Shown piece after piece: positions 1 to 14,191 of a stretch of DNA of 14,191 bases. Below the pieces are notes generated by a model, which was not told the origin of the DNA, did not search any database, and worked only from the letters and a program-made list of their open reading frames with translations. A program made the translations under genes and the position numbers. The DNA is taken from IMG/VR virus record IMGVR_UViG_2529292908_000005; one strand, given 5' to 3'. Each line of letters begins with the position of its first letter. The first letter of the stretch is position 1. Source of the DNA: a virus. Its lineage: Duplodnaviria; Heunggongvirae; Uroviricota; Caudoviricetes.

Positions 1-1578
1 ACCAGCATCATGCTCAAGGTACCAGGGGGCTCTTCCTGTTTCCTTGGTCAGTTTCATTGCCTTACCCCCGCTGGCTCCGGCATCATCCACGATTTGAGCC
101 TTGCCACCTCCGGCAGCCCAACCCTGTGGTGTCAACCGTCCTTCAGACTCAGATGCCCGGTAAGCAAATAGCGTACTCATCGTCGTGGTGTCTGCGGGTG
201 GCGTGGACGGTTTTGATGGTGTATCAGGTGACGGCTTCTCATCCGGTGGTGTCACGGTCTGCCCGCGCATCAGTTCAGCCGTGCGCCCTGCATGGAGCAT
301 AATAGCTGAGGCCAGACGGTCTGAAATGACGCCCCTGCGTGCCCATGAGCTGAAATGGCTGTCACGCTGTGTCGAAACAAAACTGCCCTGGGTTCGGGAT
401 GCTGCACCGTAATACCCGACAGCCACAATATCCGGGTCTTCCGCCGGAGCATTCGTTGGCGTGCTCTGTCCATTCTCATCCGTCAGGAACGGTACAAAGA
501 AAATTTTCTGTGCTTCCTTGCCTTTGTAGCCACCGTATACTGCCTCATATTTATCGGTGCCAGCGTTTTTCCAGTAATACGTGGTATCACCGCAAATCCA
601 CGGCACCGTGGTGGCATTTCCACTCACGCACTGCGCAGCAAGCGGAGCCAGGTCAGTTCTGAACTGCTGAACCATGGTCGTGAATAAACTATTATGCTGC
701 TGGCTTCCTGAGGCAAGGTCTGCCTCTCCCTGCATCCAGACCACAGCCAGAAGTTTGTTTTTCGGGTTTTTCGCCAGCGCGACTTTGGTGCGGCTTACCA
801 GGTCCTGATACAGAGGTTTACCGGCCCCCCAGCGTGAAGAATCAGCGGAAGCACCGCTGGCCTCACTGAATGAGCCGTCGGCTCCAGTGGTGAATGCTGA
901 CCCGCCACGACAACAGGGCACCAGAAGTATCCCGGCATTCTGTGGGATATAGGGAAGCAGTTTTTGGCAATATGCAACCCCTGACCGACAGTCCCGTACT
1001 GGCCTTTTGCCAGATCAGCTTTCGGGTGGTTTATCCCGCTCATATCCTGAACATCATGCAGGCAGTGGTCCGCCGGAATGATGTCGTTGTATGTACACGA
1101 CGTACCGTTGGGCGTTACCGTACTGCGGCGTGCCAGTTGCTTAATGCGTGGGTCCGGGCGGTCAAACGAATCCGGTAACGGCAGCCCCTCGCCGTAGGCC
1201 ATGCCATTTGACTGACCCGCGAGAATGACAACAAAGTAATATTCCGGCTCTGAACTGCTGCCATTCGTGCTACCGGAAGGCCCGGCGTTATCCGGTGCAT
1301 TCCAGTCGGAGGGCGTGAGCGTTCCGGCCACGTCAGATGTGATTGGAATGATGCCAGTCACGCCTGAACTGGTGATTTCTGCACTGGGATTACCGGATAC
1401 CGGCATTACCCATAATGGCTCTTTCGTGCTGAAGCGGATCACGCAGTCTGCGAAGGTGATCCCCCTTTATTACCCGAAGGGCGGAAGGGCTTTCAATAAA
1501 TGCCACCGTGCCACCGGCAACCTTGACTGAAAACTCTCCGGGCATGGCGGAGAGCATTTTCCACTTGGAGTCTGACAT
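1..1578 (-). pseudogene. nanS: NanS-p-like sialate 9-O-acetylesterase (SASA/SGNH domain) with extra N- and C-terminal regions; frame broken twice; 3' end runs off the window
   Basis: Minus-strand translation gives ...YYFVVILAGQSNGMAYGEGLP... (GQSN motif, ORF 795..1442) and, in the frame open from 960 to 1, ...LLPYIPQNAGILLVPCCRGGSAF...AVVWMQGEADL...GYYGA...; this matches NanS/YjhS-type esterases as recalled. N-terminal piece is ORF 1390..1578. Frame switches sit at C5 (1461-1465) and T5 (961-965). Pro/Thr-rich linker then a further domain towards position 1. Confidence 0.6.
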
Positions 1579-1663
1579 CGTCTTTTCTGCCTGTTTCTGA
1601 ATTAAACAGAGTCAGAATAGCGACCGCTGAAAAATATGTGTTTTGCGGAAATTCAAAAAAGCG

Positions 1664-2236
1664 TCACGGTACTTTTGGTGACGGAGCTGGTGAGGCAGGA
1701 AAATAACGATAAAGGGTGGAAAGGCCAATATCAAATATCAGTGCGATTTGTTTACGGGACTCGCCATTAGCCAGCAAACGGGCGATTTGCTCCCGCTCTT
1801 TCTCTGTCAGTTTCTGAGGTCTGCCGCCATGACGCCCCTGAGCACGGGCAGCAGCAAGACCCGCACGTGTACGTTCAATAATGAGTTCCCGCTCCATTTC
1901 CGCCAGCGCGCCCATTATATGGAAAAAGACACGTCCCATGGGAGTGGATGTATCAATATTGTCCGTAATGCTGCGGAAGTTAACGCCGCGTTGCCGGAGT
2001 TCTTCTGTTAAAAGGACAAGGTGCTGCATACTGCGTCCAAGGCGATCCAGTTTCCAGACCAGCAGGGTATCCCCTGGCCGGAGTCGCTTTAATGCGCGTT
2101 TAAGTCCGGGACGCTCCCTTGTCTTACCGCTTATTCTGTCTTCGAAAAACAGCTCACATCCTGCACATTCCAGCGCATTTCTTTGTAGCGCCGTATTCTG
2201 GTCATTTGTTGACACCCTGATATACCCAATCAGCAT
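1664..2236 (-). CDS. gin: Serine-recombinase DNA invertase (Gin/Pin/Hin/Cin family)
   Basis: 190-aa ORF starting MLIGYIRVSTNDQNT, with catalytic-domain pattern and C-terminal HTH ...LSTLYRYFPAS closely resembling Mu Gin as recalled; AAGGAA SD 5 nt upstream of ATG; start lies 66 bp from the left gix-like site. Confidence 0.95.
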   Translation of the reverse strand: MLIGYIRVSTNDQNTALQRNALECAGCELFFEDRISGKTRERPGLKRALKRLRPGDTLLVWKLDRLGRSMQHLVLLTEELRQRGVNFRSITDNIDTSTPMGRVFFHIMGALAEMERELIIERTRAGLAAARAQGRHGGRPQKLTEKEREQIARLLANGESRKQIALIFDIGLSTLYRYFPASPAPSPKVP

Positions 2237-2301
2237 ACGATTTCCTTATTATAAAAAGCCGGAATTGTCGCATGAGGAATAAAACAGAGTTAATCCTGGC
2301 T

Positions 2302-2327
2302 TTCCTGAAAACCTCGGTTTACGGGAA
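2302..2327. other. gix/hix-like 26-bp invertase crossover site (left)
   Basis: TTCCTGAAAACC|TCGGTTTACGGGAA: two inverted half-sites around a central dinucleotide; right half nearly identical to the Mu gix half-site TCGGTTTACAGGAA as recalled. Confidence 0.8.
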
Positions 2328-2687
2328 ACGGTAAACAGGGCGGCGAATGCTCTGCCATCGGACGGCACCGCCGTTGCCGCGAATAGACTCGCCACCCCAA
2401 GAAATATTAATGGGGTTCCCTTTGACGGGACGCAGGACATAAACATCACTTCTGGTATAACACAGCAGGATGCGGATTCCCGATATATCCAGGATATCAG
2501 GCTGGGAGCAGAGAACAGGCAGGTAATGTACGGTGGGGCATATTACTCTGCGTACGGTAATGTTATGGCAGGCCTGCAGATTGACAGTAAAGTTGATGCT
2601 TCAAAACGATTTTATAGCATTCAGACCCCTGCAAAAATTAGTCGGAGGTACATGGATTACGGTATCTCAGTTATAAATAGTCAGTAA
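2313..2687 (+). CDS. Silent alternative tail-fibre C-terminal cassette (Sv'-like); no start codon of its own
   Basis: Frame open from the left crossover site to TAA 2685-2687, encoding [48 protein letters not shown]...YMDYGISVINSQ. The first ~25 residues repeat the peptide encoded across the right site in the expressed fibre gene, so inversion would fuse this cassette to the constant fibre region. Confidence 0.7.
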   Translation, partial: LGLRETVNRAANALPSDGTAVAANRLATPRNINGVPFDGTQDINITSGITQQDADSRYIQDIRLGAENRQVMYGGAYYSAYGNVMAGLQIDSKVDASKRFYSIQTPAKISRRYMDYGISVINSQ

Positions 2688-2765
2688 ATAATATATTTTA
2701 AAACAGATTTATTTCCAGGAGGATTTTATGGAACTAAAAATATAACCCGTTATTATCCTGAAAAT

Positions 2766-3248
2766 ATGCCATATGGTAATAATGTTCAGTATTTCCAGAG
2801 TGAAGATGGTAAGGATTTCTACGAATCCCTGTCATTATTCACCAAAAAATATAAACTTTGCATAACACCTGACAGCGGCGTTATCTGCTCAATATCACAG
2901 GACGCCTCGGCGCTGTATCCTGCGGGGTTTTCTGTGGTTGAGGTCGATGAACTCCCTGAAGGCACGGATATTTCAGGAAACTGGAAGTTTGATAATGGCA
3001 TAATCTCCCGTATTCCGGTTAACTACGCAAGAAAACTGGAAGCAATGCGCCAGTCATATCTTAATCAGGCATATGAAAAAATTAATGACTGGAGAACGGA
3101 GCTACAACTGGGCACCATCAGCGATGAAGACAGAGCAGCACTTACCCAATGGATGGCATACATCAGTCAGGTGAAGAAAATGGAACTACCCGCCATTAAA
3201 ACAGAAGCTGAATTTAACGCCATTAAATGGCCTGAGCAGCCACAGTAA
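2766..3248 (+). CDS. tfa: Tail-fibre assembly protein (Tfa / Mu U-like chaperone)
   Basis: 160-aa ORF ...YFQSEDGKDFYE...ALYPAGFSVVEVDELPEG...GNWKFDNGIISR...KWPEQPQ, the characteristic Tfa pattern. ATG 2766 has no SD; a stronger start (AGGAGG + ATG 2728) lies upstream in another frame (see findings). Confidence 0.85.
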   Translation: MPYGNNVQYFQSEDGKDFYESLSLFTKKYKLCITPDSGVICSISQDASALYPAGFSVVEVDELPEGTDISGNWKFDNGIISRIPVNYARKLEAMRQSYLNQAYEKINDWRTELQLGTISDEDRAALTQWMAYISQVKKMELPAIKTEAEFNAIKWPEQPQ

Positions 3249-3251
3249 TAA

Positions 3252-3271
3252 AGAAGGCCGGAAGGCCTTCT
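3252..3271. terminator. Hairpin between convergent tfa and fibre genes (probable bidirectional terminator)
   Basis: AGAAGGCC-GGAA-GGCCTTCT: perfect 8-bp GC-rich stem with 4-nt loop, 3 nt after the tfa stop; T-rich run (TTATTACTG) on the minus-strand side. Confidence 0.5.
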
Positions 3272-3385
3272 GAATATCATTATATACTTGCAGCCGTCAC
3301 CCATGCTCCATTTAACAGATACTGCAACGGCCGGTAATACACGCCGCCGACGTTATCTGCCGTATTCTTACCGACATCCTGTACT

Positions 3386-4162
3386 TTAATTCCGGTAAGA
3401 ACATTGCCGCCCCCCCAGATTCAGATCCCAGCTTTCCCATGTTCCGGGCATATGTGCGGTCACCGACCCCAGTCTTATGGCGGTTACTGTTCCTGATGAG
3501 ATAGTGATATCCTGCGTCCCGTCAAAGGGAACACCATTAATTGTGTGGGCATTTGCCAGCCTGTTCGCGGCAACGGCGGTGCCGTCCGATGGCAGGGCAT
3601 TCGCCGCCCTGTTTACCGTTTCCCGTAAACCGACGTTATCGATAAAAGCCCCTTTATCCGGAATGTCTGCGCCGTTCTGCTCCCTGCGCAGGTAACGGTT
3701 ATCACCTTCGCTTTTGCTGTAAACATCCAGATTATTACGGGCGGTTCCCTTATTCTCCAGGTCGGCGAGATTCTGATCCTTCGCCAGGGCATTAACGTCA
3801 CCGGGACCAAGACTGTTTTTTGTGGCAAGCGTCCCCAGACCAAGATAACCACGGGCCAGACGCTGGGCCTCCGCACCGGCATCAGCAATTTCTTTCAGGT
3901 TATTTTTCCGGGAAAAGGCATTCGCAGCGATAATGGCTTTAATGGACAGCGTAAGCTGGTTTAACTGCGCCTTATCCGGCTGAATACTGGCTTCAGCCAG
4001 AATATTCAGCAGTTCGGCCTGGAGAATATTCAGCCAGTCCTGACCAATCCAGCTGATACCTTTTTGTCCGTCACCTTCGGTAAACCAGGTGGTGGTATTA
4101 CTCTGCGCCGGTGCCAGCGCAGGCATATTCGCCACGCCGGAATTATTATCAACATGAAACAT
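3386..4162 (-). CDS. Tail fibre protein (Mu S / P2 H-like): constant N-terminal part plus variable C-terminus inside the invertible segment; C-terminus probably truncated by a frameshift
   Basis: 258-aa ORF with ...[48 protein letters not shown]... crossing the right gix-like site; ATG overlaps the upstream gene stop (TAATG). A C7 tract at 3410-3416 is followed by a stop 8 codons later, while the -1 frame stays open to 3280. Confidence 0.85.
3620..3645. other. gix/hix-like 26-bp invertase crossover site (right, inverted)
   Basis: Reverse complement reads TTATCGATAACG|TCGGTTTACGGGAA; same TCGGTTTACGGGAA half-site as the left site and TTATC...AAC outer half as in Mu gix as recalled; lies inside the fibre coding sequence (encodes FIDNVGLRE). 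Confidence 0.8.
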
Positions 4163-4722
4163 TAAATAGTCTCCTCTTCATGGCTGTTTGCATACACGTA
4201 AATAAACGTCTGCCATGCAGGCTTATAACGGTTCAGAATACATTCCAGCGCACCGCCTTCATAAATACGCAGCGGCGTGAGAATATCATCCAGCACATTC
4301 ATATTCCGGTAGCCGGTTTCACTGTTAATCGTGACAATACTGACCCACTGCGAATCCGGTGAGGGCTGAATGTCAATCTGATAACCAAACTCCGCCGCAA
4401 ACCGGATATAAAATTCACGGTTCAGCGAGGGCTTCATCCGGTATTTATTTCCGGCATAACGCTGTCGCTCCGTGAGGGTGGCTCCGGCCATATCACACTC
4501 GGGAAGCCCGAGATAACGCTCCCAGTCTTCCAGCAGCAGGCGCGACGTGTCAGGGAAACGCTCGGCAAGCAGCTGTTTACCCGTCCAGGATACACGCGCT
4601 GTCGAATGACTGAGGCCCAGACATAATGATGCCAGTACGGATGACGGACGCTTGTCCCATGCCAGCCCGTCAGGCAGTAACTGCAACAGGGCGCGCTGAT
4701 GCGGGGTCAGGGTTACAGCCAT
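4162..4722 (-). CDS. Phage tail protein, DUF2313 / Mu gp48 / YmfQ-like
   Basis: 186-aa ORF in the conserved slot between baseplate J and tail fibre; start overlaps the J stop region and its stop overlaps the fibre start; composition and position match the gp48/YmfQ family as recalled. Confidence 0.75.
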
Positions 4723-5795
4723 GTGATTTCTCCTACCGTCAGCAGCTCACTGTCTCCCGCCTGAACTGACGTCAGCGGACTGCGCACTTCAAAATCCTCC
4801 AGATTTTTCACCCCTGCCACCGCCCGCCAGAAAGACGACGGCAGAACCAGACCGCCGGGCCGGGATTCGTTATACAACAGGTCGGTCAGCGCCTGTTTTA
4901 CGGCCGCCTGATTCTCCGGTGTTTTCGGGATGATCCTGATGCTGAAGGGCACCGGCTTATTGGTCAGTTTAAACACGGTCACCGTCGGCCCCAGAGGCTG
5001 TCCGACAGGCTGGCCGGTCGCCGGATCATCATGACTGCGGATATAATCCGCCACCCGCTGAACATCACCGTCACCGGGGAAAATATCCGGGTTATTATCC
5101 TGAACAAACGTTACCCCCACGCTGCCCGCCTGCGGCCATTCCGGGCGGCACCATGCCCGCGTCACGCCCGGCACTTCACGCGCCCAGCGTTCAAAATCAT
5201 ACTGCGTGCCGCCGGACGGTGGATTCTGCACCCGGAAAACCAGACGGGAAAGCAGCTCCGGCACGGTTTCCACATCCGCACCACCGGTGATCCCCGTTCC
5301 GGTCACCGTGGACGTCTGGTTGATCCCCGCCTGCGGTGTGATAAATGTCAGTTTTGTCCCTGCCGGGGCATTCCCCGCACGACCGGCACTTTCGGCTTCC
5401 ACACTGACATTCAGCGTACCGGCCTTACCGGTCAGGGAGGTGGTGATACGGTAAACCACGCCATCACTTCGCTGGAGAAGCACACCTTCCTTGATCCCCG
5501 CATCCGTGGTCAGCATCAGCTGAACCGGCCCGTCCCCCCGAGAGGCAGGCTTACGCATGACGCCCCAGAATGCACAGTGTTTCAGCAGTTCGGCTTCATC
5601 GGCTTCGGTCGGGATGATCTGACGCGCAATCCAGGCCAGATGCTCATGCTCCTGAGCAGATAACCCTGCCTGAGCGTAAGCAATGGCATTCAGGGTGGTT
5701 TCATTCACACCCGGCTGCGAGCCGGGCAGGCGCTGGCTGATATCCTGCTGTGTCTGCGTGATTAACTGTGCCAGCGGTAAAGGCTGATAAGGCAT
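4713..5795 (-). CDS. Baseplate J-like protein (Mu gp47 / P2 gpJ family)
   Basis: ORF-track frame 4713..5837 starts at TTG; a better start is ATG 5793-5795 (MPYQPLPLAQ...) with a GGG-containing SD. Translation shows the J-family layout (...ADEAELLKH.AFWGV.RK.A..A.G...GGADVE...) recalled from P2 J. Confidence 0.85.
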   Translation of the reverse strand: MPYQPLPLAQLITQTQQDISQRLPGSQPGVNETTLNAIAYAQAGLSAQEHEHLAWIARQIIPTEADEAELLKHCAFWGVMRKPASRGDGPVQLMLTTDAGIKEGVLLQRSDGVVYRITTSLTGKAGTLNVSVEAESAGRAGNAPAGTKLTFITPQAGINQTSTVTGTGITGGADVETVPELLSRLVFRVQNPPSGGTQYDFERWAREVPGVTRAWCRPEWPQAGSVGVTFVQDNNPDIFPGDGDVQRVADYIRSHDDPATGQPVGQPLGPTVTVFKLTNKPVPFSIRIIPKTPENQAAVKQALTDLLYNESRPGGLVLPSSFWRAVAGVKNLEDFEVRSPLTSVQAGDSELLTVGEITWL

Positions 5796-5954
5796 TAACC
5801 CTGTTCGATAAGGGGCTGATTTCCCGTGAGGAGGCAATACATATTATCAATCTCGCTCAAAAAAACTCTACCCCGGAAAATGCAGAAGATATCCAGGATG
5901 GCTCATATATTAATACCGACTGGCATTTCGACAATCTCCGGGCCTGTATGGGGA

Positions 5955-6242
5955 TTACCGCTGAAAAAGATTAAAAATTTTTGCATAATGTTCAGATGTA
6001 AGAATTGCTGAACCATCAACACCGAGCCTGCGGCGAACGTATTCCTCGCGGGCTATTTTATTATCCAGAGATACAGCATCCTTAATCAGGTTAATCTCCC
6101 GCTCCATTATCAAAAGGGCTTCTCTGGCTGCAAGATTTTCTTTTATCGCATATTCGATAATGTCCCGCATACGTTCAAGCATGCCGATTTTAGCCAGTTC
6201 TTCGTCGATAGATTTAGGCGCAAATTTGATTTCTTTTTCCAT
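5955..6242 (-). CDS. Hypothetical protein, predicted all-helical, encoded in AT-rich DNA
   Basis: ORF-track 5955..6257 (GTG start); preferred start ATG 6240-6242 (MEKEIKF...) with GAGGA SD 8 nt upstream, 1 nt after the stop of the upstream zinc-ribbon ORF; markedly lower GC than neighbours. Confidence 0.5.
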   Translation of the reverse strand: MEKEIKFAPKSIDEELAKIGMLERMRDIIEYAIKENLAAREALLIMEREINLIKDAVSLDNKIAREEYVRRRLGVDGSAILTSEHYAKIFNLFQR

Positions 6243-6243
6243 A

Positions 6244-6387
6244 TTATTCATCCTCACAATTTATACATGCAGTGTCGTCGCCCATATCGCAGTGGTTACA
6301 TTTTATCTCACCACAATGTGGGCACTCTTTCAGATACTCCGGGTCCTCATTTCCACAGGTGGGACATTCAACAATTTGCTCATCCAT
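6244..6387 (-). CDS. Small 4xCxxC zinc-ribbon protein (47 aa), not in the ORF track
   Basis: ATG 6385-6387 to TAA 6244-6246 translates MDEQIVECPTCGNEDPEYLKECPHCGEIKCNHCDMGDDTACINCEDE: four CxxC pairs in 47 residues; AGGGGA SD 7 nt upstream; start overlaps the stop of ORF 6380..6712 (ATGGATGA). Confidence 0.5.
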   Translation of the reverse strand: MDEQIVECPTCGNEDPEYLKECPHCGEIKCNHCDMGDDTACINCEDE

Positions 6388-6712
6388 TATGTATCCCCTG
6401 TAATTCCGGCAAGGCCGAAAGATGGCACCAGTGCGTCACCTGTCCGTCCTCATCTTCAAGGCAGGCTCCGGTTTCTTCATCAATAAAAAAGCCTTCATAC
6501 CCCATATGGCCGATGCGCAGTTCCTGTTGGTCACCATACTGAACAATCAGCACGACAGCCTCCATATCAGGCGGAAATGCGTCATCCAGTGAATGCCAGG
6601 GATAACCGCGCAAATCCCCGAAATAAACGCCGGTCAGCGTTCCGCCACAGAGCGGCATTCCGGCGGCACACACAAGAGGTTCATCTGATTCAACAAATAA
6701 GGTCGTTATCAT
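6380..6712 (-). CDS. Hypothetical protein (110 aa)
   Basis: ORF with ATGA start/stop overlap to the upstream gene at 6709-6712; acidic C-terminal half; no family recognised. Confidence 0.55.
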   Translation of the reverse strand: MITTLFVESDEPLVCAAGMPLCGGTLTGVYFGDLRGYPWHSLDDAFPPDMEAVVLIVQYGDQQELRIGHMGYEGFFIDEETGACLEDEDGQVTHWCHLSALPELQGIHNG

Positions 6713-7260
6713 GGCGTTAACTCCCGTAATACAGCGTCCTCGGCAGTCCGGCGACGGTAATAAACTGCGTGAGCAGAATGTTCAGATATTCCAAACTTTT
6801 CGCCAATTTCCCGGAATGACAGACGGCGTGGGTAATCGGAATCACGCAGCGCACGTATAAGACGTACATCATCATCAGATATGCGCGTGCCGGGGCGTAA
6901 CTCTCCGCACTTTGTTAATCCAGCACCAATCATTCCTGCCCGACATCTGACAGAATCTTTATTACGTCCGAGATATTCTCCCATTTGCTGGCAGGTCATT
7001 GTTCTGGCATTTTTTCGAATAAACTTATCTTCATCAGGTGTAAATCTTGGGTGTTTATATTTCAGTAACTCCGGGTATGAACTGCGCAATACACCAGTCC
7101 GGTTATATACAGCCCAGACAGTTCTTTTTATTCTGGCAGCAATATCCTTAACCGGGGTGGATGAATAAAGCGCAATCAGTAGCGCATCTTCTTCAGGTGT
7201 CCACGCGCGGACATGAGCGGGTGTACGACCTTTTCGCCCCATGGGTTGTAATTTCATCAT
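6709..7260 (-). CDS. Putative DNA-binding protein with tandem Myb/SANT-like HTH repeats
   Basis: 183 aa; repeats ...RAWTPEEDALLIALYS...IAARIKRTVWAVYNRTGVL and ...RFTPDEDKFIRKNARTMTCQQMGEYLGRNKDSVRCRA, plus a third weaker HTH-like segment; strong AGGGGGTGA SD; start 3 nt after the upstream stop. Confidence 0.6.
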   Translation of the reverse strand: MMKLQPMGRKGRTPAHVRAWTPEEDALLIALYSSTPVKDIAARIKRTVWAVYNRTGVLRSSYPELLKYKHPRFTPDEDKFIRKNARTMTCQQMGEYLGRNKDSVRCRAGMIGAGLTKCGELRPGTRISDDDVRLIRALRDSDYPRRLSFREIGEKFGISEHSAHAVYYRRRTAEDAVLRELTP

Positions 7261-7263
7261 GCA

Positions 7264-7779
7264 TCACCCCCTGACTCGCTTTTCAGCAGCATAAAACTCA
7301 TCAGACAGTATTTCGGTCATTTTCTGTTTTGCGGGTTTTACGCCGCACTGAAGGTAAATCACATCGTCAACGCAGAACCACTTCACAGGGCCAAACAGGA
7401 TTGCCGAGAAATCAATACCCAGCCAGAACAACAGCGCATCGGTTCTGGCATACGTGACGGGTGAATATTCACGCCACAGACTGTTCAGTTCATCAGAGGC
7501 AACACGCAGGGTTTTAGGGATACGTGATGTGCGCGGTGTGCAGCTCCAGCCATTCGACGCAGTCGGTTTTCGCCATAAGTCGCGATGAAAAGGATATTTG
7601 TCCTCCGTAAAACGCAGTCCCTTAAAGCAAAATCCACTGATACCGGATACAAATACCGACCGGCACGCAACATTCAGCACGGCCTCAAGGCGTTTTGCCT
7701 CATCCTTAACTTTCTGGCAGTCCTGCTGGTATTTTTGCCACGCAGCCAGCGCGGAAGGGTTTGATGTTTTAAAGAACAT
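7264..7779 (-). CDS. Hypothetical early-region protein (171 aa)
   Basis: ORF whose ATG shares a nucleotide with the upstream stop (TAATG at 7777-7781); no family recognised. Confidence 0.55.
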   Translation of the reverse strand: MFFKTSNPSALAAWQKYQQDCQKVKDEAKRLEAVLNVACRSVFVSGISGFCFKGLRFTEDKYPFHRDLWRKPTASNGWSCTPRTSRIPKTLRVASDELNSLWREYSPVTYARTDALLFWLGIDFSAILFGPVKWFCVDDVIYLQCGVKPAKQKMTEILSDEFYAAEKRVRG

Positions 7780-8312
7780 TACGCCACCTCCGCAGATATC
7801 CCGGCAGGCGCTGCTGTCCGGTCAACAATCAGGTAGCGCAGAACATGTTCAGTGATATTCCAGCCGCTTAAACCGCAGATAATGACGCCCAGGCGTATGT
7901 CGATATACGCCATCACAAACTGGGGCACGCCTTCTTTCATGGCCTGCTCATCAACTTCAGCCACCACATAAACGGTTTCACAGGTCAGAACGCCCTGAGC
8001 AAATTCCCACGCCATCGACGGAATATCATGCCCCTCAATCCATGGCAGGGATTTTCTGAAGCCGCACCACTGAACATCATCAGCCGCAGATTCCTGGCTG
8101 CATTTGCGACGAACCGGCTGCACCGGGCGGGGGCGCGGAATATCATAAAAACCGTTACATTCCGTCAGCACGCCTGCATCAACCGCATCACGCAGAAAAT
8201 AAACCATGGAGGATGGCGGCATATTCATTTTTTCAGCCAGTACACCGCAGGTCAGGCGGCCATAAATACGCAGCCAGTTTTTAACCCCTTCAAGCACTTT
8301 TGCATCAATCAT
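7779..8312 (-). CDS. Hypothetical early-region protein (177 aa)
   Basis: ORF with GGGGAAA SD 7 nt upstream of ATG 8310-8312; first gene after the 145-bp AT-rich gap downstream of gam; no family recognised. Confidence 0.55.
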   Translation of the reverse strand: MIDAKVLEGVKNWLRIYGRLTCGVLAEKMNMPPSSMVYFLRDAVDAGVLTECNGFYDIPRPRPVQPVRRKCSQESAADDVQWCGFRKSLPWIEGHDIPSMAWEFAQGVLTCETVYVVAEVDEQAMKEGVPQFVMAYIDIRLGVIICGLSGWNITEHVLRYLIVDRTAAPAGISAEVA

Positions 8313-8457
8313 GATTTATTTCCCCACCACATTATTAATGACGATATAAACGTATTTCATATTTCTTAACCCTTATTTTCTGTTTTCAGGCGCAAGCAGT
8401 CCCCTGACGCGAGCGCCATAATTAAAATGAAGTGATATTTAATTGATTAATGCGGTG

Positions 8458-8988
8458 TTATTTATTCAGTCCGGCGTCCTGTTCAAAAGGCTCGACATAA
8501 AAACTTTCAGCGCCTTTATTCACCTTGATACCGGCAATGCCTTTCACAGCATCCGGCTCCGCCAGGACGGCTTCCTTGTTCACTTCCTCTTTCGTGCGGA
8601 TGAAACGCTCAAGCCCCATACGGCGCAGCATTTCAATCACACCTTCCACATCACGGCTGACGCTGCATGATGGCGTTCCCAGCCGCCATGACACCGTTCC
8701 GGTGGTCAGATTGGCTGTTTTGGTTTTGCCGCCGTTCGTCAGCTCATCACGGTTGGTTTTGCACCAGTCCTGAATCCCTTTAAAAAGCACTTTGATTTGC
8801 TTTTTAAGATTTTCAATCTGCGGCGTATAACGGGCGGTGATTTCTGCCACTTCGTCATTCATCGCCGTTTCCAGGCGCAGCGCCTCTCGCTGAATATCTC
8901 CCAGGGTGCGGATATCACGGCTGACTTCTTCCCGGGTCTGCGGTGCCGCCTCGGCTGCGGCCTTTAATTTTGTAACGCGTTTAGCCAT
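8458..8988 (-). CDS. gam: Gam-like host-nuclease inhibitor (Mu Gam family, DNA-end binding)
   Basis: 176-aa ORF MAK...DIRTLGDIQREALRLETAMNDEVAEI...DWCKTNRDELTNGGKTKTANLTTGTVSWR...ERFIRTKEEVNKEAVL...EPFEQDAG, co-linear with Mu Gam as recalled; AGGA SD. Confidence 0.9.
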   Translation of the reverse strand: MAKRVTKLKAAAEAAPQTREEVSRDIRTLGDIQREALRLETAMNDEVAEITARYTPQIENLKKQIKVLFKGIQDWCKTNRDELTNGGKTKTANLTTGTVSWRLGTPSCSVSRDVEGVIEMLRRMGLERFIRTKEEVNKEAVLAEPDAVKGIAGIKVNKGAESFYVEPFEQDAGLNK

Positions 8989-8999
8989 TTTGTTTTTCC

Positions 9000-9293
9000 T
9001 TATTGCAGTGTGCCTGATGCTTTATGCACGCGGTGGCGTTTAATGATGGCATCCGCTCCAAAAGACTGTGCAGATGCCTGAAATTCCGCTGAGAGAAACT
9101 GAATAATTGCAGGACTGTGATACTGGAGAATACTTGCATAAACGTCACAGAGTGACGTCGGCCTGTTATCCGTATCACGTTCTGTTTTTACATCCACACC
9201 AATCTTTTCATGCACTTCAACACTGTCATTGCCTGCCGGTTTTTCGTCATGCGAAACATGCTCAAATTCAAAAATAACGCGTACTTTGCTCAT
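9000..9293 (-). CDS. Hypothetical small early protein (paralogue 1 of a tandem pair)
   Basis: ORF-track 9000..9320; preferred start ATG 9291-9293 (MSKVRVIFEFEHV...) with GGGG SD, 4 nt after the upstream gene stop; N-terminus parallels the upstream gene (MSKVVRIIFEYKE...). Confidence 0.55.
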   Translation of the reverse strand: MSKVRVIFEFEHVSHDEKPAGNDSVEVHEKIGVDVKTERDTDNRPTSLCDVYASILQYHSPAIIQFLSAEFQASAQSFGADAIIKRHRVHKASGTLQ

Positions 9294-9297
9294 GGAA

Positions 9298-9570
9298 TTA
9301 CCCCTGCTGATTAAATTCATTACCGTTAATAACCCCGGAAGCCATGCCTCTGTCTTTCATGAATGCACTGGCTTTCATTGCCACAAACTCTGCGAAGTTT
9401 CTGCTTTCTGCCAGCATAACCACCCCAAAAATCATGGCGGGTCCATTATCTTTCTTCTTTATTCCGGTTGAACGTATATCCAGACTTACCCCTCTGTGCG
9501 TGCTGCCATCAGAGTTTTTGCAGATAACATCTTCCTTGTATTCGAAAATAATGCGTACGACTTTACTCAT
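9298..9570 (-). CDS. Hypothetical small early protein (paralogue 2 of a tandem pair)
   Basis: 90-aa ORF MSKVVRIIFEYKEDV...; 4-nt start/stop overlap with the upstream gene. Confidence 0.55.
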   Translation of the reverse strand: MSKVVRIIFEYKEDVICKNSDGSTHRGVSLDIRSTGIKKKDNGPAMIFGVVMLAESRNFAEFVAMKASAFMKDRGMASGVINGNEFNQQG

Positions 9571-9848
9571 CCTCTGGTCCTCGTTCTGTTTGGATAACTG
9601 ACCCGGCGTCTAACCTCACGGCAGAACCGAATCATGGCATTAAAGGCTTCTTCCTCCGTCACCGCTTCCGGTATCCCAGGAACCAGTAGCTGTTCCTGTT
9701 CATCGCGTCCATGACGCGCCATAACCTCAATCACATGCCGTACCGTGGCAGGCTTTCCGGCAACTATCGGCAATGCACCTTCCGGCAGGACGTAACCAAA
9801 CTCAATAAGACCACTCGACCACGCCCATGCAATGAGATTTCGTTTCAC
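9567..9848 (-). CDS. Hypothetical small early protein (93 aa)
   Basis: ORF packed between neighbours in the B-to-gam interval; no family recognised. Confidence 0.5.
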   Translation of the reverse strand: MKRNLIAWAWSSGLIEFGYVLPEGALPIVAGKPATVRHVIEVMARHGRDEQEQLLVPGIPEAVTEEEAFNAMIRFCREVRRRVSYPNRTRTRG

Positions 9849-9849
9849 C

Positions 9850-10116
9850 TCACACCTCCCAGTAAACCGTGCAGCCGCTGATGCGGGTGGCCTTCACACG
9901 GCGGCGCAGGCCGTTGGTCTGTATGGTGATTTCAATTTCACCGGTTCCCTGCACGTTGCCTACCGGCGGCGTGGTTTTCAGTGCAAAACGTTGCGGATAG
10001 CGCTTACTGCGTTCCAGTACCGCACCGGCAAGTTCGGTCAGACGGCGCGCGCTGTTCAGGGAGTCGAATAAATTCATTTTGTTACCGCAGGATTGCATAT
10101 TCATATAACACCTCAT
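9850..10116 (-). CDS. Hypothetical small early protein (start ambiguous: ATG at 10116, 10104, 10098 or 10077)
   Basis: ORF directly following the upstream stop (TAA ATG); several in-frame ATGs, GAGGTG SD-like element before 10104/10098; sits where kil-type genes lie in Mu, but no sequence recognition. Confidence 0.45.
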   Translation of the reverse strand: MRCYMNMQSCGNKMNLFDSLNSARRLTELAGAVLERSKRYPQRFALKTTPPVGNVQGTGEIEITIQTNGLRRRVKATRISGCTVYWEV

Positions 10117-10338
10117 TTAGCTGACTTGTTTCGCACCAACAGAACGGCATATTCCGCTGTAAACTTCTGTCGCACCTTCGCGATCAAGTCCGGCAGATAT
10201 CACCATTCGTGTGCGGTCATTAAATTCAAAAAGTAAATCGCCACATTCTTTATTTTCGGCCAGTGAAATCACCTTCACGTTATCGAAATTAACCAGGTAA
10301 AAGCGTCCGTAAATATCAGGAATATTAAATACCGCCAT
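10117..10338 (-). CDS. Hypothetical small early protein (73 aa)
   Basis: ORF-track 10117..10344 (GTG); ATG 10336-10338 with AGGTG SD 5 nt upstream is preferred; begins 2 nt after the B stop. Confidence 0.5.
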   Translation of the reverse strand: MAVFNIPDIYGRFYLVNFDNVKVISLAENKECGDLLFEFNDRTRMVISAGLDREGATEVYSGICRSVGAKQVS

Positions 10339-10340
10339 AA

Positions 10341-11273
10341 TCACACCTGTGAGAGTAATTCAGGGTTGGTATAAACCTCTTTAAAGGCCGCATTAATATG
10401 TTTTTCTGTCAGCGCCGCGCCTTCACCGCTGGCGGTGAGCCACGCCTGGTTAAGCGTATGTGTCAGAACGCGTAACGCTCCCGGCTTTTCAGCGATAGCC
10501 TGCATGACGGCCAGCTCGGCCTCACCACTGATACCCCATGCCCTGGCAATGGCCAGCACATCCGCCTTTTTGGCCTTGCGAAGTTGTTTTGTACGGGCAA
10601 GACGGCTGAACAGGCGCGATAAATCATCAAAGGCGCGGCGTCCACCTTTAAACAATCCGCGCGGGTTACCAATAAGCACCATCCCGATCCCCGTGGCGTC
10701 CTGAATTGCCCGGAGTTGCTCCAGACCGTCAATACCAAGATGATCCGCCTCATCCACAATCACCAGTCCACGCGTTCCCGTCAGGCGACGGCGGATGGCG
10801 CGGGATAATGCCCCTTTGTTCGCGCGGGTGTAATCAATCCCCAGCGCATCGGCCAGCTCCAGCAGACACTCCGTGACGCTGGAGTGCGCGGGTGACAGGG
10901 TGATCATCCAGGTGTTTGGTTGCTCCTGGCAGTAATTACGGGCAGTGGCCGTTTTACCCACACCCGGTACGCCCACAATAACGTTAATACAGCCCATCAG
11001 GCGAACCGCCTGAAACAGTGCGCGCAGCTCCTGGACTGTCTGAGTTTCCACAAACTGCGGCGGTTCCGGCAGTGCGCTTTGTTTATTCCAGTTCTCATAC
11101 CAGGAGCGCAGGGAAGCAGCCACAGCGGCGTTATCGCCTTTATATTTCCCCTTGCGGAAAGCCGATAATGTGCCGTCGGAAATTCCCGCCTCTCTGGCGA
11201 TGGCATACTGCGTCAGCACGCCGCCATCAATAAGTTCATCAATGGTCTTGATTACATCGTTTATATCGGTCAT
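10341..11273 (-). CDS. B: MuB-like transposition target-capture protein (AAA+ ATPase)
   Basis: 310-aa ORF with Walker A VGVPGVGKTATARNY, ...LVIVDEADHLG..., N-terminal HTH-like region, and co-linearity with Mu B as recalled (...GDN..V...L..W...PEPP.FVETQTV...KPGALR.L...); GAGG SD; directly downstream of the transposase. Confidence 0.92.
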   Translation of the reverse strand: MTDINDVIKTIDELIDGGVLTQYAIAREAGISDGTLSAFRKGKYKGDNAAVAASLRSWYENWNKQSALPEPPQFVETQTVQELRALFQAVRLMGCINVIVGVPGVGKTATARNYCQEQPNTWMITLSPAHSSVTECLLELADALGIDYTRANKGALSRAIRRRLTGTRGLVIVDEADHLGIDGLEQLRAIQDATGIGMVLIGNPRGLFKGGRRAFDDLSRLFSRLARTKQLRKAKKADVLAIARAWGISGEAELAVMQAIAEKPGALRVLTHTLNQAWLTASGEGAALTEKHINAAFKEVYTNPELLSQV

Positions 11274-11312
11274 ATTATTACCTCGCGTTTGTGTAGTTCC
11301 TTTGTTTAATCA

Positions 11313-11348
11313 AATAACCTGAGTCGCCGCTCGGGTTATTTTTTATTT
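11313..11348 (+). terminator. Stem-loop plus T-tract in the A-B intergenic region; reads as an intrinsic terminator on the strand antisense to A/B
   Basis: AATAACCTGAG-TCGCCG-CTCGGGTTATT (11-bp stem with one G-U pair on the plus-strand RNA) followed by TTTTATTT; on the sense (minus) strand the stem has a C-A mismatch and a weaker U-tract. Confidence 0.35.
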
Positions 11349-13438
11349 CAGGCCAGAGGGTCATTTTCTTTTAATTTCGCTTCAAGCAGCTGCAATCCCC
11401 GCTGGAAATTACGCTCGTATTCTTCATCAGGTTCATCGTCAGCGACCGGTTGCTGAACGATCACCGTATTACCCACAGGGCGGTATATATTTTCCAGCCA
11501 CGGCTCCTGTGGCTTGTGCTCCAGCACGTTGACAATCTCATCCTCGGCATCACGGATTTTTTCCTCTGCGCGTTTACGCATGCCTTTAAGGCGCTGCTGC
11601 TGTTTGTGGTATTCCGCGCTGACCGGGAAGGCTTCGCGTTTATTGCCGTCCCATACCGCCTCGCAAATCACGCTGCCATCCGGGCGACGTACGGTAATTC
11701 GTTCGGCATCATGAATGTCATAGCTGATAAGCACCTTACGACCATGCTCGTCACGCAGCTCGGGCGCGTAGTAAATATTATTCAGCCAGCGTATTTCACA
11801 GCGTCTTACAGGGCGTTCCACCATCGGCCGGAACATATCCCGCAGCTCAACATCGGACAGCCATTCAATTTCCGTGTCCTCTTCCGCCAGGCGTTTTTTT
11901 CTGAACTCCGCCGGGCTGTAATGCTTGCCGTTCGGCTTCACCGGTAATTCATCGTGCGGCCGGTTGTTGTACCACTCAACACCATCACGAATGGCATCAA
12001 TCAGTTCAGCCCAGGACGGTAAATCACGCATCGCTGACTGCTGCCGGGCGTTCAGCCGTTTGCCCTGTTGCAGGGCAGTAAATGCCGAGCGTAAATCGCG
12101 GTTGGTTTTGCGTAACGTCTCGCGATCTGCACCTTTCCCGAAATAGGTGCGGTATTTACGGGCTATGCGCATCGGTAATGTGCGGTTAAGCCGTTCGATA
12201 ATGCCTCGTCCCTGCGGATTACCGGCAATCCCGGTCGGGTGATTAATCCCCAGTCGCGGCAGTATCCCCACAACCTCCTTATCCAGGATGTCGGCGGTTT
12301 CCCCGGAGCCGTTATCCGAGTAATACAGAAACGGTTTGCCGTGATGGCGAATGCCGTGCTGTATGGCACCGGCTACGGCGAAAACATTTTCAGCCAGGTC
12401 AAGGCTCCAGCCCACCACAAAGCGCGTGCCACCGTCGATAACAAAGGTCACTTCCGGTGCAAATGGCCGACCGTGAACCGGGTGTGCGCATTTCAGCTTC
12501 ATGCCGTGACCGTCACCAATCCAGACATAATTCACCGGCATTTTTGACCAGTCGCGGCGCGTGAATCCCTCAAGCTGGCGGTATTCACTGCCGGTCACCC
12601 GGCCTTTTTGTTTCACCACTTCCGGCAGTTTCTTCATTGCGCGGCGAATGGTGTCATAAGACGGCATGATATCGAGCATATAAGGCTCATCAGCGTGCCG
12701 GTGCTGCCATTCAGCAACAAAATCCTCGTAAGCCTCGGTCATTGGTCGGCCGTTTGACTGGCGATACTGCGCCAGAAATTCGGGCAGCCAGTTAATATCT
12801 TCGGCTTTTATTTCCTGGCGCTTACCCGGTGCCAGTAAAAGCAGGCGTTCAGCGGCGTTCTGCGCCTTGTTAAAGGCCGCAATCCAGCGTTTCAGCGTGA
12901 TTTCACTTAACGCGCGGCTGTTTCCCTTTTTGGCGTTCGCCGTCTCAACCATTGCCACAATGCGCTCGTCCAGCTGCGAACGTGCCAGGTTGTCAACGAT
13001 AAACCGGATAGCCTTCGCACAGCTGAAACCAGGTTGTTGCGCGACTTTCAGCACCTCGCTGACGATCGCGATTCGTGCATCAGCCACCTGGCGCTGGTTT
13101 TCAGTCAGGGCATTAAGGCGTTCAACCATCAGTTGTGGTGATCCGCGATATGCCTCCACCGCATCAACCACGGCAGGCGAGCGTCTGGCCTTTGTCACCA
13201 CTGGAGCCGGTGATTCATCGACTTTTTGAGTCATCAGTTGCAGGGCGTAGCGTTCACGTAATGCCTGCTGCGTCACTTCAGGTAAACAGTCGATGCTGTA
13301 TTCAGTTGCTTTAGAGCCTGAGCGACGACGGGAACAACAGCTTTTCCCTTGTACGTAACGTTGTAATGCCTGGCGAATACCTTTTGTTGTAGCAGGCATT
13401 CCGGGCGCGCCAATCAGTTCTTTTGCAATGACATACAT
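11348..13438 (-). CDS. A: Mu-type DDE transposase (MuA-like)
   Basis: 696-aa ORF of MuA size, immediately between ner-like and B-like genes; start 1 nt after the ner stop (TGATATG); internal ...YVWIGDGHGMKLKC... core region. Assignment rests mainly on size and conserved ner-A-B synteny. Confidence 0.9.
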   Translation of the reverse strand: MYVIAKELIGAPGMPATTKGIRQALQRYVQGKSCCSRRRSGSKATEYSIDCLPEVTQQALRERYALQLMTQKVDESPAPVVTKARRSPAVVDAVEAYRGSPQLMVERLNALTENQRQVADARIAIVSEVLKVAQQPGFSCAKAIRFIVDNLARSQLDERIVAMVETANAKKGNSRALSEITLKRWIAAFNKAQNAAERLLLLAPGKRQEIKAEDINWLPEFLAQYRQSNGRPMTEAYEDFVAEWQHRHADEPYMLDIMPSYDTIRRAMKKLPEVVKQKGRVTGSEYRQLEGFTRRDWSKMPVNYVWIGDGHGMKLKCAHPVHGRPFAPEVTFVIDGGTRFVVGWSLDLAENVFAVAGAIQHGIRHHGKPFLYYSDNGSGETADILDKEVVGILPRLGINHPTGIAGNPQGRGIIERLNRTLPMRIARKYRTYFGKGADRETLRKTNRDLRSAFTALQQGKRLNARQQSAMRDLPSWAELIDAIRDGVEWYNNRPHDELPVKPNGKHYSPAEFRKKRLAEEDTEIEWLSDVELRDMFRPMVERPVRRCEIRWLNNIYYAPELRDEHGRKVLISYDIHDAERITVRRPDGSVICEAVWDGNKREAFPVSAEYHKQQQRLKGMRKRAEEKIRDAEDEIVNVLEHKPQEPWLENIYRPVGNTVIVQQPVADDEPDEEYERNFQRGLQLLEAKLKENDPLA

Positions 13439-13439
13439 A

Positions 13440-13688
13440 TCATGACGCCTTTCTCATATAGCTCTTAACCTGGTATCGACTGGGCCAGATTTCTTCAGGC
13501 GATACCCCAAGAGCATCAGCAATTATTTGCTGATACGGTCGGCAAGGAGTACGTAATACGCTTTTCAGCGAATCCCTGCTGTAACCAGCCTTTAAAGATA
13601 AAGAGCGCAGTGATAAGCCAGCCATGTGTAAGCGCGCCTTGATGATTTCAGGCGGCCAATCGTGATCTGAAACTTCTCTTCTACTCAT
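13440..13688 (-). CDS. ner: Ner-like DNA-binding regulator (Ner/Nlp family)
   Basis: 82-aa ORF ...DWPPEIIKARL...GLSLRSLSLKAGYSRDSL...QQIIADALGVSPEEIWPSRY..., co-linear with Mu Ner / E. coli Nlp as recalled; first gene of the early operon, divergent from the repressor. Confidence 0.88.
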   Translation of the reverse strand: MSRREVSDHDWPPEIIKARLHMAGLSLRSLSLKAGYSRDSLKSVLRTPCRPYQQIIADALGVSPEEIWPSRYQVKSYMRKAS

Positions 13689-13855
13689 ACTTCCTCTATT
13701 CTAAAAAGTTACCCGCGCGGATATTCGTGCGGATATCTGTACGGGTAAATAATAGAACAAGCAAAAGAACCAAATCAAGGTATTTTGTTCTTTTTATTCT
13801 TTGCGGTGTTTTTGTTATTAATATCAATAAGATAAATAAAAAGGAACCTGAGAGC
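13689..13855. promoter_or_regulatory. Divergent early promoter/operator region between ner and the repressor gene
   Basis: 167-bp AT-rich intergenic region. Direct repeats GCGGATAT at 13717-13724 and 13729-13736 nested in inverted arms TTACCCG (13709-13715) / CGGGTAA (13742-13748). Candidate leftward promoter: -35 TTGATT (13773-13778) and -10 TATTAT (13749-13754), 18-bp spacer. AAGGAA SD for the repressor at 13841-13846. Confidence 0.5.
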
Positions 13856-14191
13856 ATGAACATGAAAAACAGTTCTTTTCTCGACGAAGGAAAAGAACCA
13901 GTGATCGAACGGATTTTTCGTCTTGCAGAGCGTTACAAATCGAGAAGTGAGGCGGCTAGAGCATGGGGAATAAACGTTCAGACATTGCAGAACTACTACA
14001 AAAGGAGAAACAATCAGCCGCCACCACAACCAAGAAAGCACCATCTCCAGAACATTGCAGAAAGAGAACATGTATCTATGGAGTGGCTGGTCAATGGTTA
14101 TGGTGATGAGCCAAGCATGAAAAAAGAACCAATTGAACAAACAAAAAGAACAAAAAACAAAGAATTGATGATAGTGATTCCATCATCATGA
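13856..14191 (+). CDS. Prophage repressor, CI-type HTH (Phage_CI_repr-like); ends at the window edge
   Basis: ORF-track frame 13727..14191; preferred start ATG 13856 (MNMKNSS...) with AAGGAA SD 9 nt upstream; HTH segment ...SRSEAARAWGINVQTLQNYYK... and the ...VSMEWLVNGYG motif typical of CI-type repressor N-domains; divergent from ner-A-B. Confidence 0.7.
   Translation: MNMKNSSFLDEGKEPVIERIFRLAERYKSRSEAARAWGINVQTLQNYYKRRNNQPPPQPRKHHLQNIAEREHVSMEWLVNGYGDEPSMKKEPIEQTKRTKNKELMIVIPSS

What the first reader, a model, noticed from the sequence alone, without database searches (positions are those of the whole stretch)
2717..2768. tfa has a strong upstream start cut off from its body by an A-run frameshift
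AGGAGG (2717-2722) plus ATG 2728 is the best ribosome-binding site in the region, but it opens only MELKI-stop. The annotated ATG 2766 has no SD. Adding one A to the A5 run (2736-2740) would give MELKNITRYYPENMPYGNNVQYFQSEDG…, and MxxLKNI is a typical Tfa/Mu U N-terminus as recalled. So tfa is probably frameshifted at codon 5 and, at best, reinitiated at Met-13.
Basis: partly seen in the sequence, partly recalled or inferred. Interest (0 to 1): 0.45.

Follow-up and report, generated by a model that had tools for sequence, protein, structure and literature searches.

The report
One-base gap splits tfa; likely miscall
A phage tail-fibre chaperone gene in this draft E. coli contig is cut off from its real start by one missing A in a run of six, and the comparisons indicate an ordinary sequencing miscall rather than biology.

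Summary
AGGAGG (2717-2722) and ATG 2728 open MELKI-stop. An A5 run lies at 2736-2740. The 160-aa ORF starts at ATG 2766, which has no Shine-Dalgarno sequence.

All 29 related loci whose DNA I read have A6 here and encode a 173-aa Tfa that starts at the ATG 2728 equivalent. All 115 full-length homologues keep the N-terminus M-x-L-x-N-[VI]-x-R-Y-x-P, and none starts at the internal Met. That Met is residue 14, not 13.

The lesion is probably not biological. The window is the first 14 kb of a draft contig of E. coli DEC6C (AIFX01000029.1). The A5 run is one of six one-base homopolymer changes, all between 960 and 3410, that no other sequence shares. An independent assembly of the whole invertible segment (1,243 bp) matches the window at every base, including an otherwise private substitution. 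It differs only at the three homopolymer sites inside that segment.

The likeliest cause is therefore a homopolymer-length miscall near a contig end (about 0.85). The main alternative is a real slippage mutation in an already dead, internally deleted Mu-like prophage (about 0.12). Nothing supports programmed frameshifting or phase variation. Low interest.

The parts
2717..2722 (+). Shine-Dalgarno sequence AGGAGG of the true tfa start, 5 nt upstream of the ATG
   Evidence: -10.3 kcal/mol against the anti-SD. Identical in FORC_069, where the CDS starts at this ATG.
2728..2745 (+). True tfa start codon (ATG 2728) and the first codons. In this record they read MELKI-stop because one A is missing.
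2736..2740 (+). A5 run. It is A6 in every related sequence read. This is the site of the one-base gap at codons 4-5 of tfa.
2766..3248 (+). Body of tfa as deposited: a 160-aa ORF from the internal Met14, GenBank EHV67298.1. It contains the Caudo_TAP domain. The intact gene would span 2728-3248.
3252..3271 (.). GC-rich hairpin (GAAGGCC-GGAA-GGCCTTC) between the convergent tfa and tail-fibre genes. It is terminator-like.
   Evidence: (I3).
3280..4162 (-). Tail-fibre gene, 293 aa in relatives. Here it is cut to 258 aa by C7 instead of C6 at 3410-3416.
2301..2676 (+). Promoterless alternative C-terminal segment of the fibre gene, immediately upstream of tfa. It carries A4 instead of A3 at 2600-2603.
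2307..2455 (.). Left inverted repeat of the invertible segment. It pairs with 3492-3640.
3492..3640 (.). Right inverted repeat of the invertible segment.
1664..2236 (-). Gin/Pin-type serine invertase, 190 aa and intact, with one substitution (F103V) found otherwise only in one sister strain (draft L055 and Logan contig L054).
1..1578 (-). SASA/DUF6645 gene, 684 aa in relatives. It runs off the contig end and is broken by three one-base homopolymer losses at 960, 1460 and 1484.

Best explanation
The gene is an ordinary Mu-U-type tail fibre assembly protein (Tfa). Its real start is ATG 2728, behind the AGGAGG. In relatives it encodes 173 aa. In this record one A of an A6 run (codons 4-5) is missing, so the start is separated from the body and annotation falls back on the internal Met14. 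The missing A is most probably not in the bacterium. It looks like a homopolymer-length miscall in the draft assembly of E. coli DEC6C. It is one of six such one-base errors packed into the 3.4 kb next to the contig end. If so, tfa is intact in the real genome. Shown: the true start, the conserved N-terminus, the uniqueness of A5, and the pattern of differences being homopolymer-only. Inferred: that the cause is technical. The reads and the sequencing platform were not available.
For: (1) The window is positions 1-14191 of AIFX01000029.1 (GCA_000249635.2), so it starts at a contig end. NCBI protein names identify the strain as E. coli DEC6C.
(2) Against FORC_069 and JMF1, the first 4.1 kb has six one-base indels, all in homopolymers: 960 T5/T6, 1460 C5/C6, 1484 A2/A3, 2603 A4/A3, 2735 A5/A6, 3410 C7/C6. 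Every other locus that covers these sites has the reference length at all six, except L018, which has C5 at 3410.
(3) Four of the nine 6-nt runs in that stretch have a changed length.
(4) The nearest relative of the invertible segment is AAUUHL010000066.1, with its Logan counterpart SRR9184501_1051. Both are 1.24 kb. They match window 2352-3595 with zero substitutions, and they share 2832T, which none of the 30 panel loci compared earlier carries. They differ only at 2603, 2735 and 3410.
(5) A sister strain (draft AASIYF02, contigs L055 and L040) shares both the prophage deletion junction and the rare invertase F103V. It has T6, C6 and A3 and an uninterrupted DUF6645 ORF.
(6) The 160-aa product is on record for this one contig only. 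The only other 160-aa calls, in Shigella sonnei, start 6-10 nt from contig ends.
(7) Window 5391-9840 is 100% identical to sister contig L038, so the lineage is not generally decayed.
Against: The reads and the platform of the DEC6C assembly could not be inspected. The genome paper is not held. The same 4.1 kb also has private or near-private substitutions that are not next to homopolymers (1071, 1865, 1930), so some real divergence exists there. The prophage is defective: gemA, mor, the lysis genes, the head genes and most tail genes are deleted, so real decay of tfa would cost nothing. The indels reach 3.4 kb from the contig end, which is further than simple end-of-contig low coverage explains. 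Two further run-length differences (11344 T6, 14157 A6) are shared with another genome, E. coli 9.0111, and may be genuine alleles.
Confidence: 0.85

Rival explanations
1. The missing A is real. It would be a replication-slippage deletion in the A6 run that inactivated tfa in a Mu-like prophage already dead through a large internal deletion. This would make tfa an ordinary pseudogene, with at most weak reinitiation at Met14.
For: The prophage lacks gemA, mor, the lysis genes, the head genes and most tail genes. Baseplate J is joined directly to the early region at about 5797, and the same junction occurs in other assemblies. In the window's orientation tfa is convergent with the fibre gene, so it is not co-transcribed with it. 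Homopolymers are natural slippage sites. A few real substitutions private to this lineage exist nearby.
Against: Six private one-base homopolymer changes occur in 3.4 kb, against zero substitutions relative to the nearest relative of the invertible segment. Against the sister strain over window 5-2350 there are only 4 substitutions. From my recollection of E. coli mutation-accumulation studies, not checked here, neutral mutation gives several to many substitutions per indel. Four of nine 6-nt runs are changed, while the adjacent 4.4 kb is identical to a sister strain. No other assembly carries any of the six changes.
Confidence: 0.12
2. The arrangement is functional. One version is a five-codon leader ORF with regulated reinitiation at ATG 2766. 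Another is a programmed -1 ribosomal slip on A-AAA-A before the rare AUA codon. A third is a phase-variable A-run that switches tfa on and off.
For: The sequence CUA-AAA-AUA-UAA would let tRNA-Lys re-pair one base back, and that reading reproduces exactly the wild-type MELKNIT... This is direct reading plus general knowledge of shifty Lys codons, so it is inference only. The mini-ORF stop lies 20 nt before ATG 2766.
Against: No relative conserves the interrupted form. All 29 loci read have A6, and the 20 complete genomes at 99.6% presumably do too. Diverged homologues have no A-run at all (CTGATTAAT) and no Met14. ATG 2766 has no Shine-Dalgarno sequence. The 13 lost residues are among the most conserved of the protein and are modelled as structured. 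A 5-6 nt run is too short for a typical contingency locus, which is established knowledge. No run-length polymorphism is seen among relatives.
Confidence: 0.02
3. The 160-aa ORF from ATG 2766 is the native gene, and the upstream SD and ATG are a chance occurrence.
For: The GenBank annotation of the record calls it that way (EHV67298.1). The Pfam Caudo_TAP domain lies wholly inside the 160 aa.
Against: Of 115 homologues, 93 start exactly at the upstream Met, the other 22 are called with longer upstream extensions, and none starts at position 14. Only 52 of the 115 have Met at position 14. The other 160-aa calls are contig-end truncations.
Confidence: 0.01

Closest known systems
Phage Mu tail fibre assembly protein U (TfaMu; PDB 5YVQ chain B) and its E. 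coli prophage relatives (TfaE/TfaP type; Pfam PF02413 Caudo_TAP)
   Same: The restored protein matches 5YVQ_B by sequence (E 1.7e-16). It also matches by fold: TM 0.79 on the target and rmsd 2.4 A over all 103 resolved residues. It has the Caudo_TAP C-terminal domain. It lies directly after the variable part of a tail-fibre gene, inside an invertible segment, next to a Gin-type invertase of a Mu-like prophage. According to PMC9608196, the Mu Tfa N-terminal domain binds the distal fibre and the C-terminal helical domain drives trimerisation.
   Different: Identity to Mu U is only about 33% over the N-terminal domain. The invertible segment here carries a single tfa, whereas my recollection is that Mu has both U and U'. 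In this record the first 13 codons are out of frame.
Homopolymer-length errors in draft assemblies
   Same: All differences from the nearest relative are +/-1 changes in mononucleotide runs. They cluster near a contig end. Each breaks an ORF that is intact in all the relatives compared.
   Different: The platform and the read evidence for this assembly could not be checked here. Two of the six sites are short 3-nt runs.
Frameshifted pseudogenes in decaying prophages
   Same: The prophage is internally deleted and cannot make particles. Other assemblies also show broken copies of this module, for example the split tfa in CP169402.1 (L042) and the rearranged segment in TOE17.
   Different: The ratio of indels to substitutions on this branch is far too high for ordinary decay.

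Membership tests
Tail fibre assembly protein (Tfa; Mu U type, Pfam Caudo_TAP) | C-terminal Caudo_TAP domain above Pfam's gathering score | tested here: met
   PF02413 scores 69.3-69.6 bits against a cut-off of 22.1, in both the 160-aa ORF and the restored 173-aa protein.
Tail fibre assembly protein (Tfa; Mu U type, Pfam Caudo_TAP) | Sequence and fold similarity to the solved Mu Tfa (5YVQ_B) | tested here: met
   phmmer gives E 1.7e-16. The AF2 model of the 99%-identical intact protein has pLDDT 91.5. Foldseek gives E 3.6e-8, TMt 0.79 and rmsd 2.4 A over 103 columns.
Tail fibre assembly protein (Tfa; Mu U type, Pfam Caudo_TAP) | Conserved N-terminus M-x-L-x-N-[VI]-x-R-Y-x-P as part of one uninterrupted ORF | tested here: not met
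   The motif is encoded at 2728-2765 but only after one A is restored. As deposited, the ORF is interrupted at codon 5. This makes the deposited copy a broken member, not a non-member.
Tail fibre assembly protein (Tfa; Mu U type, Pfam Caudo_TAP) | Position directly downstream of a tail-fibre variable segment, in a Gin-type invertible region of a Mu-like phage | tested here: met
   The inverted repeats are at 2307-2455 and 3492-3640. The invertase is at 1664-2236, with the fibre, gp48-like and baseplate J genes next to it. L045 shows the other orientation, with fibre and tfa on one strand.
Tail fibre assembly protein (Tfa; Mu U type, Pfam Caudo_TAP) | Chaperone activity on the cognate fibre | not testable with these tools
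   This needs co-expression or phage assembly assays.
Programmed ribosomal frameshift site | The interrupted reading frame and slippery site are conserved among homologues | tested here: not met
   None of the 29 loci read, and none of the 115 protein cluster representatives, has the interruption. Diverged homologues lack the A-run.
Phase-variable (contingency) homopolymer tract | Run-length polymorphism among close relatives, and a long tract | tested here: not met
   All relatives have A6, and the tract is only 5-6 nt.
Homopolymer sequencing or assembly error | Differences from the closest independent sequence are confined to mononucleotide run lengths | tested here: met
   There are 0 substitutions and 3 run-length differences in 1,243 bp. 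Against the sister strain over window 5-2350 (2.3 kb) there are 3 run-length differences and 4 substitutions.
Homopolymer sequencing or assembly error | Raw reads or resequencing show the reference run length | not testable with these tools
   No DEC6C reads are accessible. The genome announcement (PMC3370608) is not held.

The most novel reading that the evidence does not exclude
DEC6C really carries A5, and full-length Tfa is still made at a low level. This would happen by a -1 slip of tRNA-Lys on A-AAA-A while the ribosome waits at the rare AUA codon just before the UAA stop. That reading restores exactly the wild-type sequence MELKNIT...
Probability: 0.02. Interest if true: 0.3.

Novelty: already known. 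Interest (0 to 1): 0.06.

Why it matters
It matters only as housekeeping. The deposited protein EHV67298.1 (160 aa) and its neighbours EHV67295, EHV67296 and EHV67299 are most likely truncated by assembly errors. They should not be used as evidence for short Tfa forms, alternative starts or pseudogenisation. The case also shows that Met14-start Tfa entries in databases arise from frameshift errors or contig ends, not from biology. No open question is advanced.

Tried and rejected
1. A scan of species-representative genomes for the A5/A6 pattern found nothing.
2. The phage GenBank collection has no near match to 2600-3300.
3. I tried to establish the sequencing platform and paper of the DEC6C assembly. 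The accession and strain searches were uninformative and the genome announcement is not held.
4. I tried to reach more of contig AIFX01000029.1 to measure its error rate in chromosomal genes. Look-ups of the truncated repressor returned another genome or nothing, and the MuA look-up returned other strains.
5. Shigella sonnei 160-aa Tfa entries looked like independent cases of the same truncation. They turned out to be genes cut by contig ends.
6. I first took the sharing of 11344 T6 and 14157 A6 with Logan SRR495239 as proof that these are natural alleles. That run corresponds to E. coli 9.0111 (EII22191.1), another draft genome whose date and sequencing platform I could not check. The point stays open.
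It was reached through the exact-sequence cluster look-up instead.
8. My first script for private indels failed because of gap placement in runs. The flank-based tally was used instead.

Full report
**Observation.**
- AGGAGG lies at 2717-2722.
- ATG 2728 is followed by GAA CTA AAA ATA TAA, which reads MELKI-stop.
- The A5 run is at 2736-2740.
- ATG 2766 opens a 160-aa ORF that ends at 3248.
- Predicted pairing with the 16S rRNA 3' end is -10.3 kcal/mol upstream of ATG 2728. That is in the top 1% of the 203 + strand ATGs. It is +0.4 kcal/mol upstream of ATG 2766.
- The hexamer alone is not unusual: 3 copies against 4.1 expected.
- The internal Met is residue 14 of the intact protein, not 13.

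**What the gene is.** The ORF carries the Caudo_TAP domain. The restored protein matches the solved Mu tail fibre assembly protein U (5YVQ_B) by sequence, with E 1.7e-16. It also matches by fold. An AlphaFold model of the 99%-identical intact protein has pLDDT 91.5. It superposes on all 103 resolved residues of 5YVQ_B with TM 0.79 and rmsd 2.4 A. According to PMC9608196, the N-terminal domain of Mu Tfa binds the distal fibre and the C-terminal helices drive trimerisation.

**Genomic context.** The window holds a Mu-like prophage read on the - strand.
- MuA is at 11348-13438, MuB at 10341-11273 and Gam at 8458-8988.
- Baseplate J is at 4713-5795, a gp48-like gene at 4162-4722 and the tail-fibre gene at 3280-4162.
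- A Gin-type invertase is at 1664-2236, and a SASA/DUF6645 gene runs off the left end.
- About 150-nt inverted repeats (2307-2455 and 3492-3640) bracket a segment. That segment holds an alternative fibre C-terminus, tfa and the current fibre C-terminus.
- In this orientation tfa is convergent with the fibre gene, and a hairpin at 3252-3271 lies between them. L045 shows the other orientation, with fibre then tfa on one strand.
- The prophage is internally deleted. Baseplate J is joined at about 5797 to the early region, so gemA, mor, the lysis genes, the head genes and most tail genes are missing. The same junction occurs in three other draft assemblies.

**True start of tfa.**
- FORC_069 and JMF1 are 99.6% identical over 2600-3300. 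They have A6 and an annotated 173-aa tail fiber assembly protein (WP_000421093.1) that starts at the ATG 2728 equivalent.
- All 20 complete E. coli genomes at 99% identity or more gave the same score, so they presumably carry the same differences.
- Seven metagenome contigs and ten IMG/VR contigs with the exact flanks all have A6.
- Among all loci fetched, 29 have A6 and none has A5, apart from the window's own record.
- Diverged homologues (CI5, M3) have CTGATTAAT instead of the A-run. They begin MQLINVKRYYPEHKPYGN, which keeps the N-terminus and has Lys at position 14.
- Among 115 full-length cluster representatives (54-99% identity), M1, L3, Y9 and P11 are invariant. N5 occurs in 114 and R8 in 110, while Met14 occurs in only 52. 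Ninety-three start exactly at M1 and none starts at position 14.
- In the model, residues 1-10 have pLDDT 93 and include beta residues 2-3 and 7-9.

**Cause of the missing A: provenance and the set of indels.** The window is positions 1-14191 of AIFX01000029.1 (GCA_000249635.2), so it starts at a contig end. NCBI names the proteins as E. coli DEC6C.

Against both FORC_069 and JMF1, the first 4.1 kb has six one-base indels, all in homopolymers:

| Window position | Window | Relatives |
|---|---|---|
| 960 | T5 | T6 |
| 1460 | C5 | C6 |
| 1484 | A2 | A3 |
| 2603 | A4 | A3 |
| 2735 | A5 | A6 |
| 3410 | C7 | C6 |

- Each breaks an ORF that is intact in all the relatives compared. DUF6645 is hit three times, and the alternative fibre end, tfa and the fibre gene once each.
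- No other sequence shares any of the window's six lengths.
- Four of the nine 6-nt runs in this stretch have changed length.
- Window 5391-9840 is 100% identical to a sister assembly that carries the same deletion junction.

**Cause of the missing A: the two closest relatives.**
- A sister strain (draft AASIYF02 and Logan SRR9913975) shares the rare invertase substitution F103V. Over window 5-2350 it differs by four substitutions and has T6, C6 and A3. Its DUF6645 ORF is uninterrupted.
- The restored 173-aa Tfa includes Ser36. That residue comes from 2832T, which none of the 30 panel loci compared earlier carries. This exact protein exists as EFW7503406.1.
- Its 1,243-bp contig (AAUUHL010000066.1), and an independent Logan contig (SRR9184501_1051), match window 2352-3595 with zero substitutions. 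They differ only at 2603, 2735 and 3410.
- Three independent slippage events with no substitution in 1.24 kb, on top of three more next door, is not what neutral decay produces. My recollection of E. coli mutation-accumulation work, not checked here, is that substitutions outnumber indels several-fold or more. The pattern is what homopolymer miscalls in one assembly produce.

I therefore put about 0.85 on a technical error and about 0.12 on a real slippage mutation in a dead prophage.

**Caveats.**
- The reads and the platform could not be checked.
- A few substitutions private to this lineage exist in the same stretch, and they are not next to homopolymers.
- The indels extend 3.4 kb from the contig end.
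- Sister-strain assemblies break inside baseplate J and at the invertible segment. The region is therefore repeated or heterogeneous and hard to assemble. That fits a low-quality consensus but does not prove it.

**Functional readings.**
- A leader ORF with reinitiation, a programmed -1 slip on A-AAA-A before the rare AUA codon, or phase variation would each need the interrupted form or run-length variation to recur among relatives. Neither recurs.
- The only other 160-aa Tfa entries, in Shigella sonnei, are genes cut 6-10 nt from contig ends.

**Verdict.** The gene is a known kind (Mu-U-type Tfa). The lesion is most probably an assembly artefact and otherwise an ordinary pseudogene. Interest is low.

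Noticed in passing
window 960, 1460, 1484, 2603, 3410: There are five further one-base homopolymer changes that no relative shares. They break the SASA/DUF6645 gene three times (684 aa in relatives), the alternative fibre C-terminus, and the tail-fibre gene (293 aa cut to 258 aa). They have the same likely cause as the tfa gap.
   Followed up: yes
window 5768-5974 (junction at about 5797): The Mu-like prophage is internally deleted. The baseplate J start is joined to the early region just after a 95-aa gene, so gemA, mor, the lysis genes, the head genes and most tail genes are gone. A 68-aa ORF spans the junction. It is also found in GCA_000704465.1, GCA_000704505.1 and GCA_012373615.2, so the deletion is inherited within a lineage.
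   Followed up: partly
window 13856-14191 (A6 at 14152-14157) and 11339-11344 (T6): The repressor-like gene is 194 aa in most relatives. Here it is cut to 111 aa by A6 instead of A7. An intergenic T7 is T6. Both variants are shared with E. coli 9.0111 / Logan SRR495239, whose prophage is 2.2% diverged. This could be a natural split allele or a recurrent miscall, and it is not resolved.
   Followed up: partly
window 2307-3640: The invertible segment carries only one tfa. In the window's orientation the 293-aa fibre has no co-oriented tfa. In the other orientation (L045) a 296-aa fibre is followed by tfa. My recollection is that Mu has a chaperone gene for each orientation (U and U'). Whether the 293-aa fibre form needs Tfa is unknown.
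   Followed up: no
window 1930 (invertase codon 103): The Gin-type invertase has F103V in the conserved GRFFFH stretch. This substitution is seen otherwise only in the draft assembly GCA_012373615.2 and in a Logan contig (SRR9913975) that differs from the window at the same sites. The effect on activity is unknown.
   Followed up: partly
L005 (TOE17) 3804-4759; L042 (CP169402.1) 6474-6993: Other genomes carry damaged versions of this module. TOE17 has a partly inverted and duplicated piece, in which window 2820-3336 is inverted, with two tfa fragments. CP169402.1 has tfa split into 146 + 31 aa.
   Followed up: no
window 9838-9845: The window reads TTTCGTTT where most relatives have a T8 run, and two relatives have T7. 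The adjacent 93-aa gene is called with different lengths in different genomes.
   Followed up: no
L051, L052, L056 (contig ends near the window 2350-2760 equivalents): Short-read assemblies of relatives break at the borders of the invertible segment and just upstream of tfa codon 14. This produces database Tfa entries of 152-160 aa that look like N-terminally short forms.
   Followed up: partly
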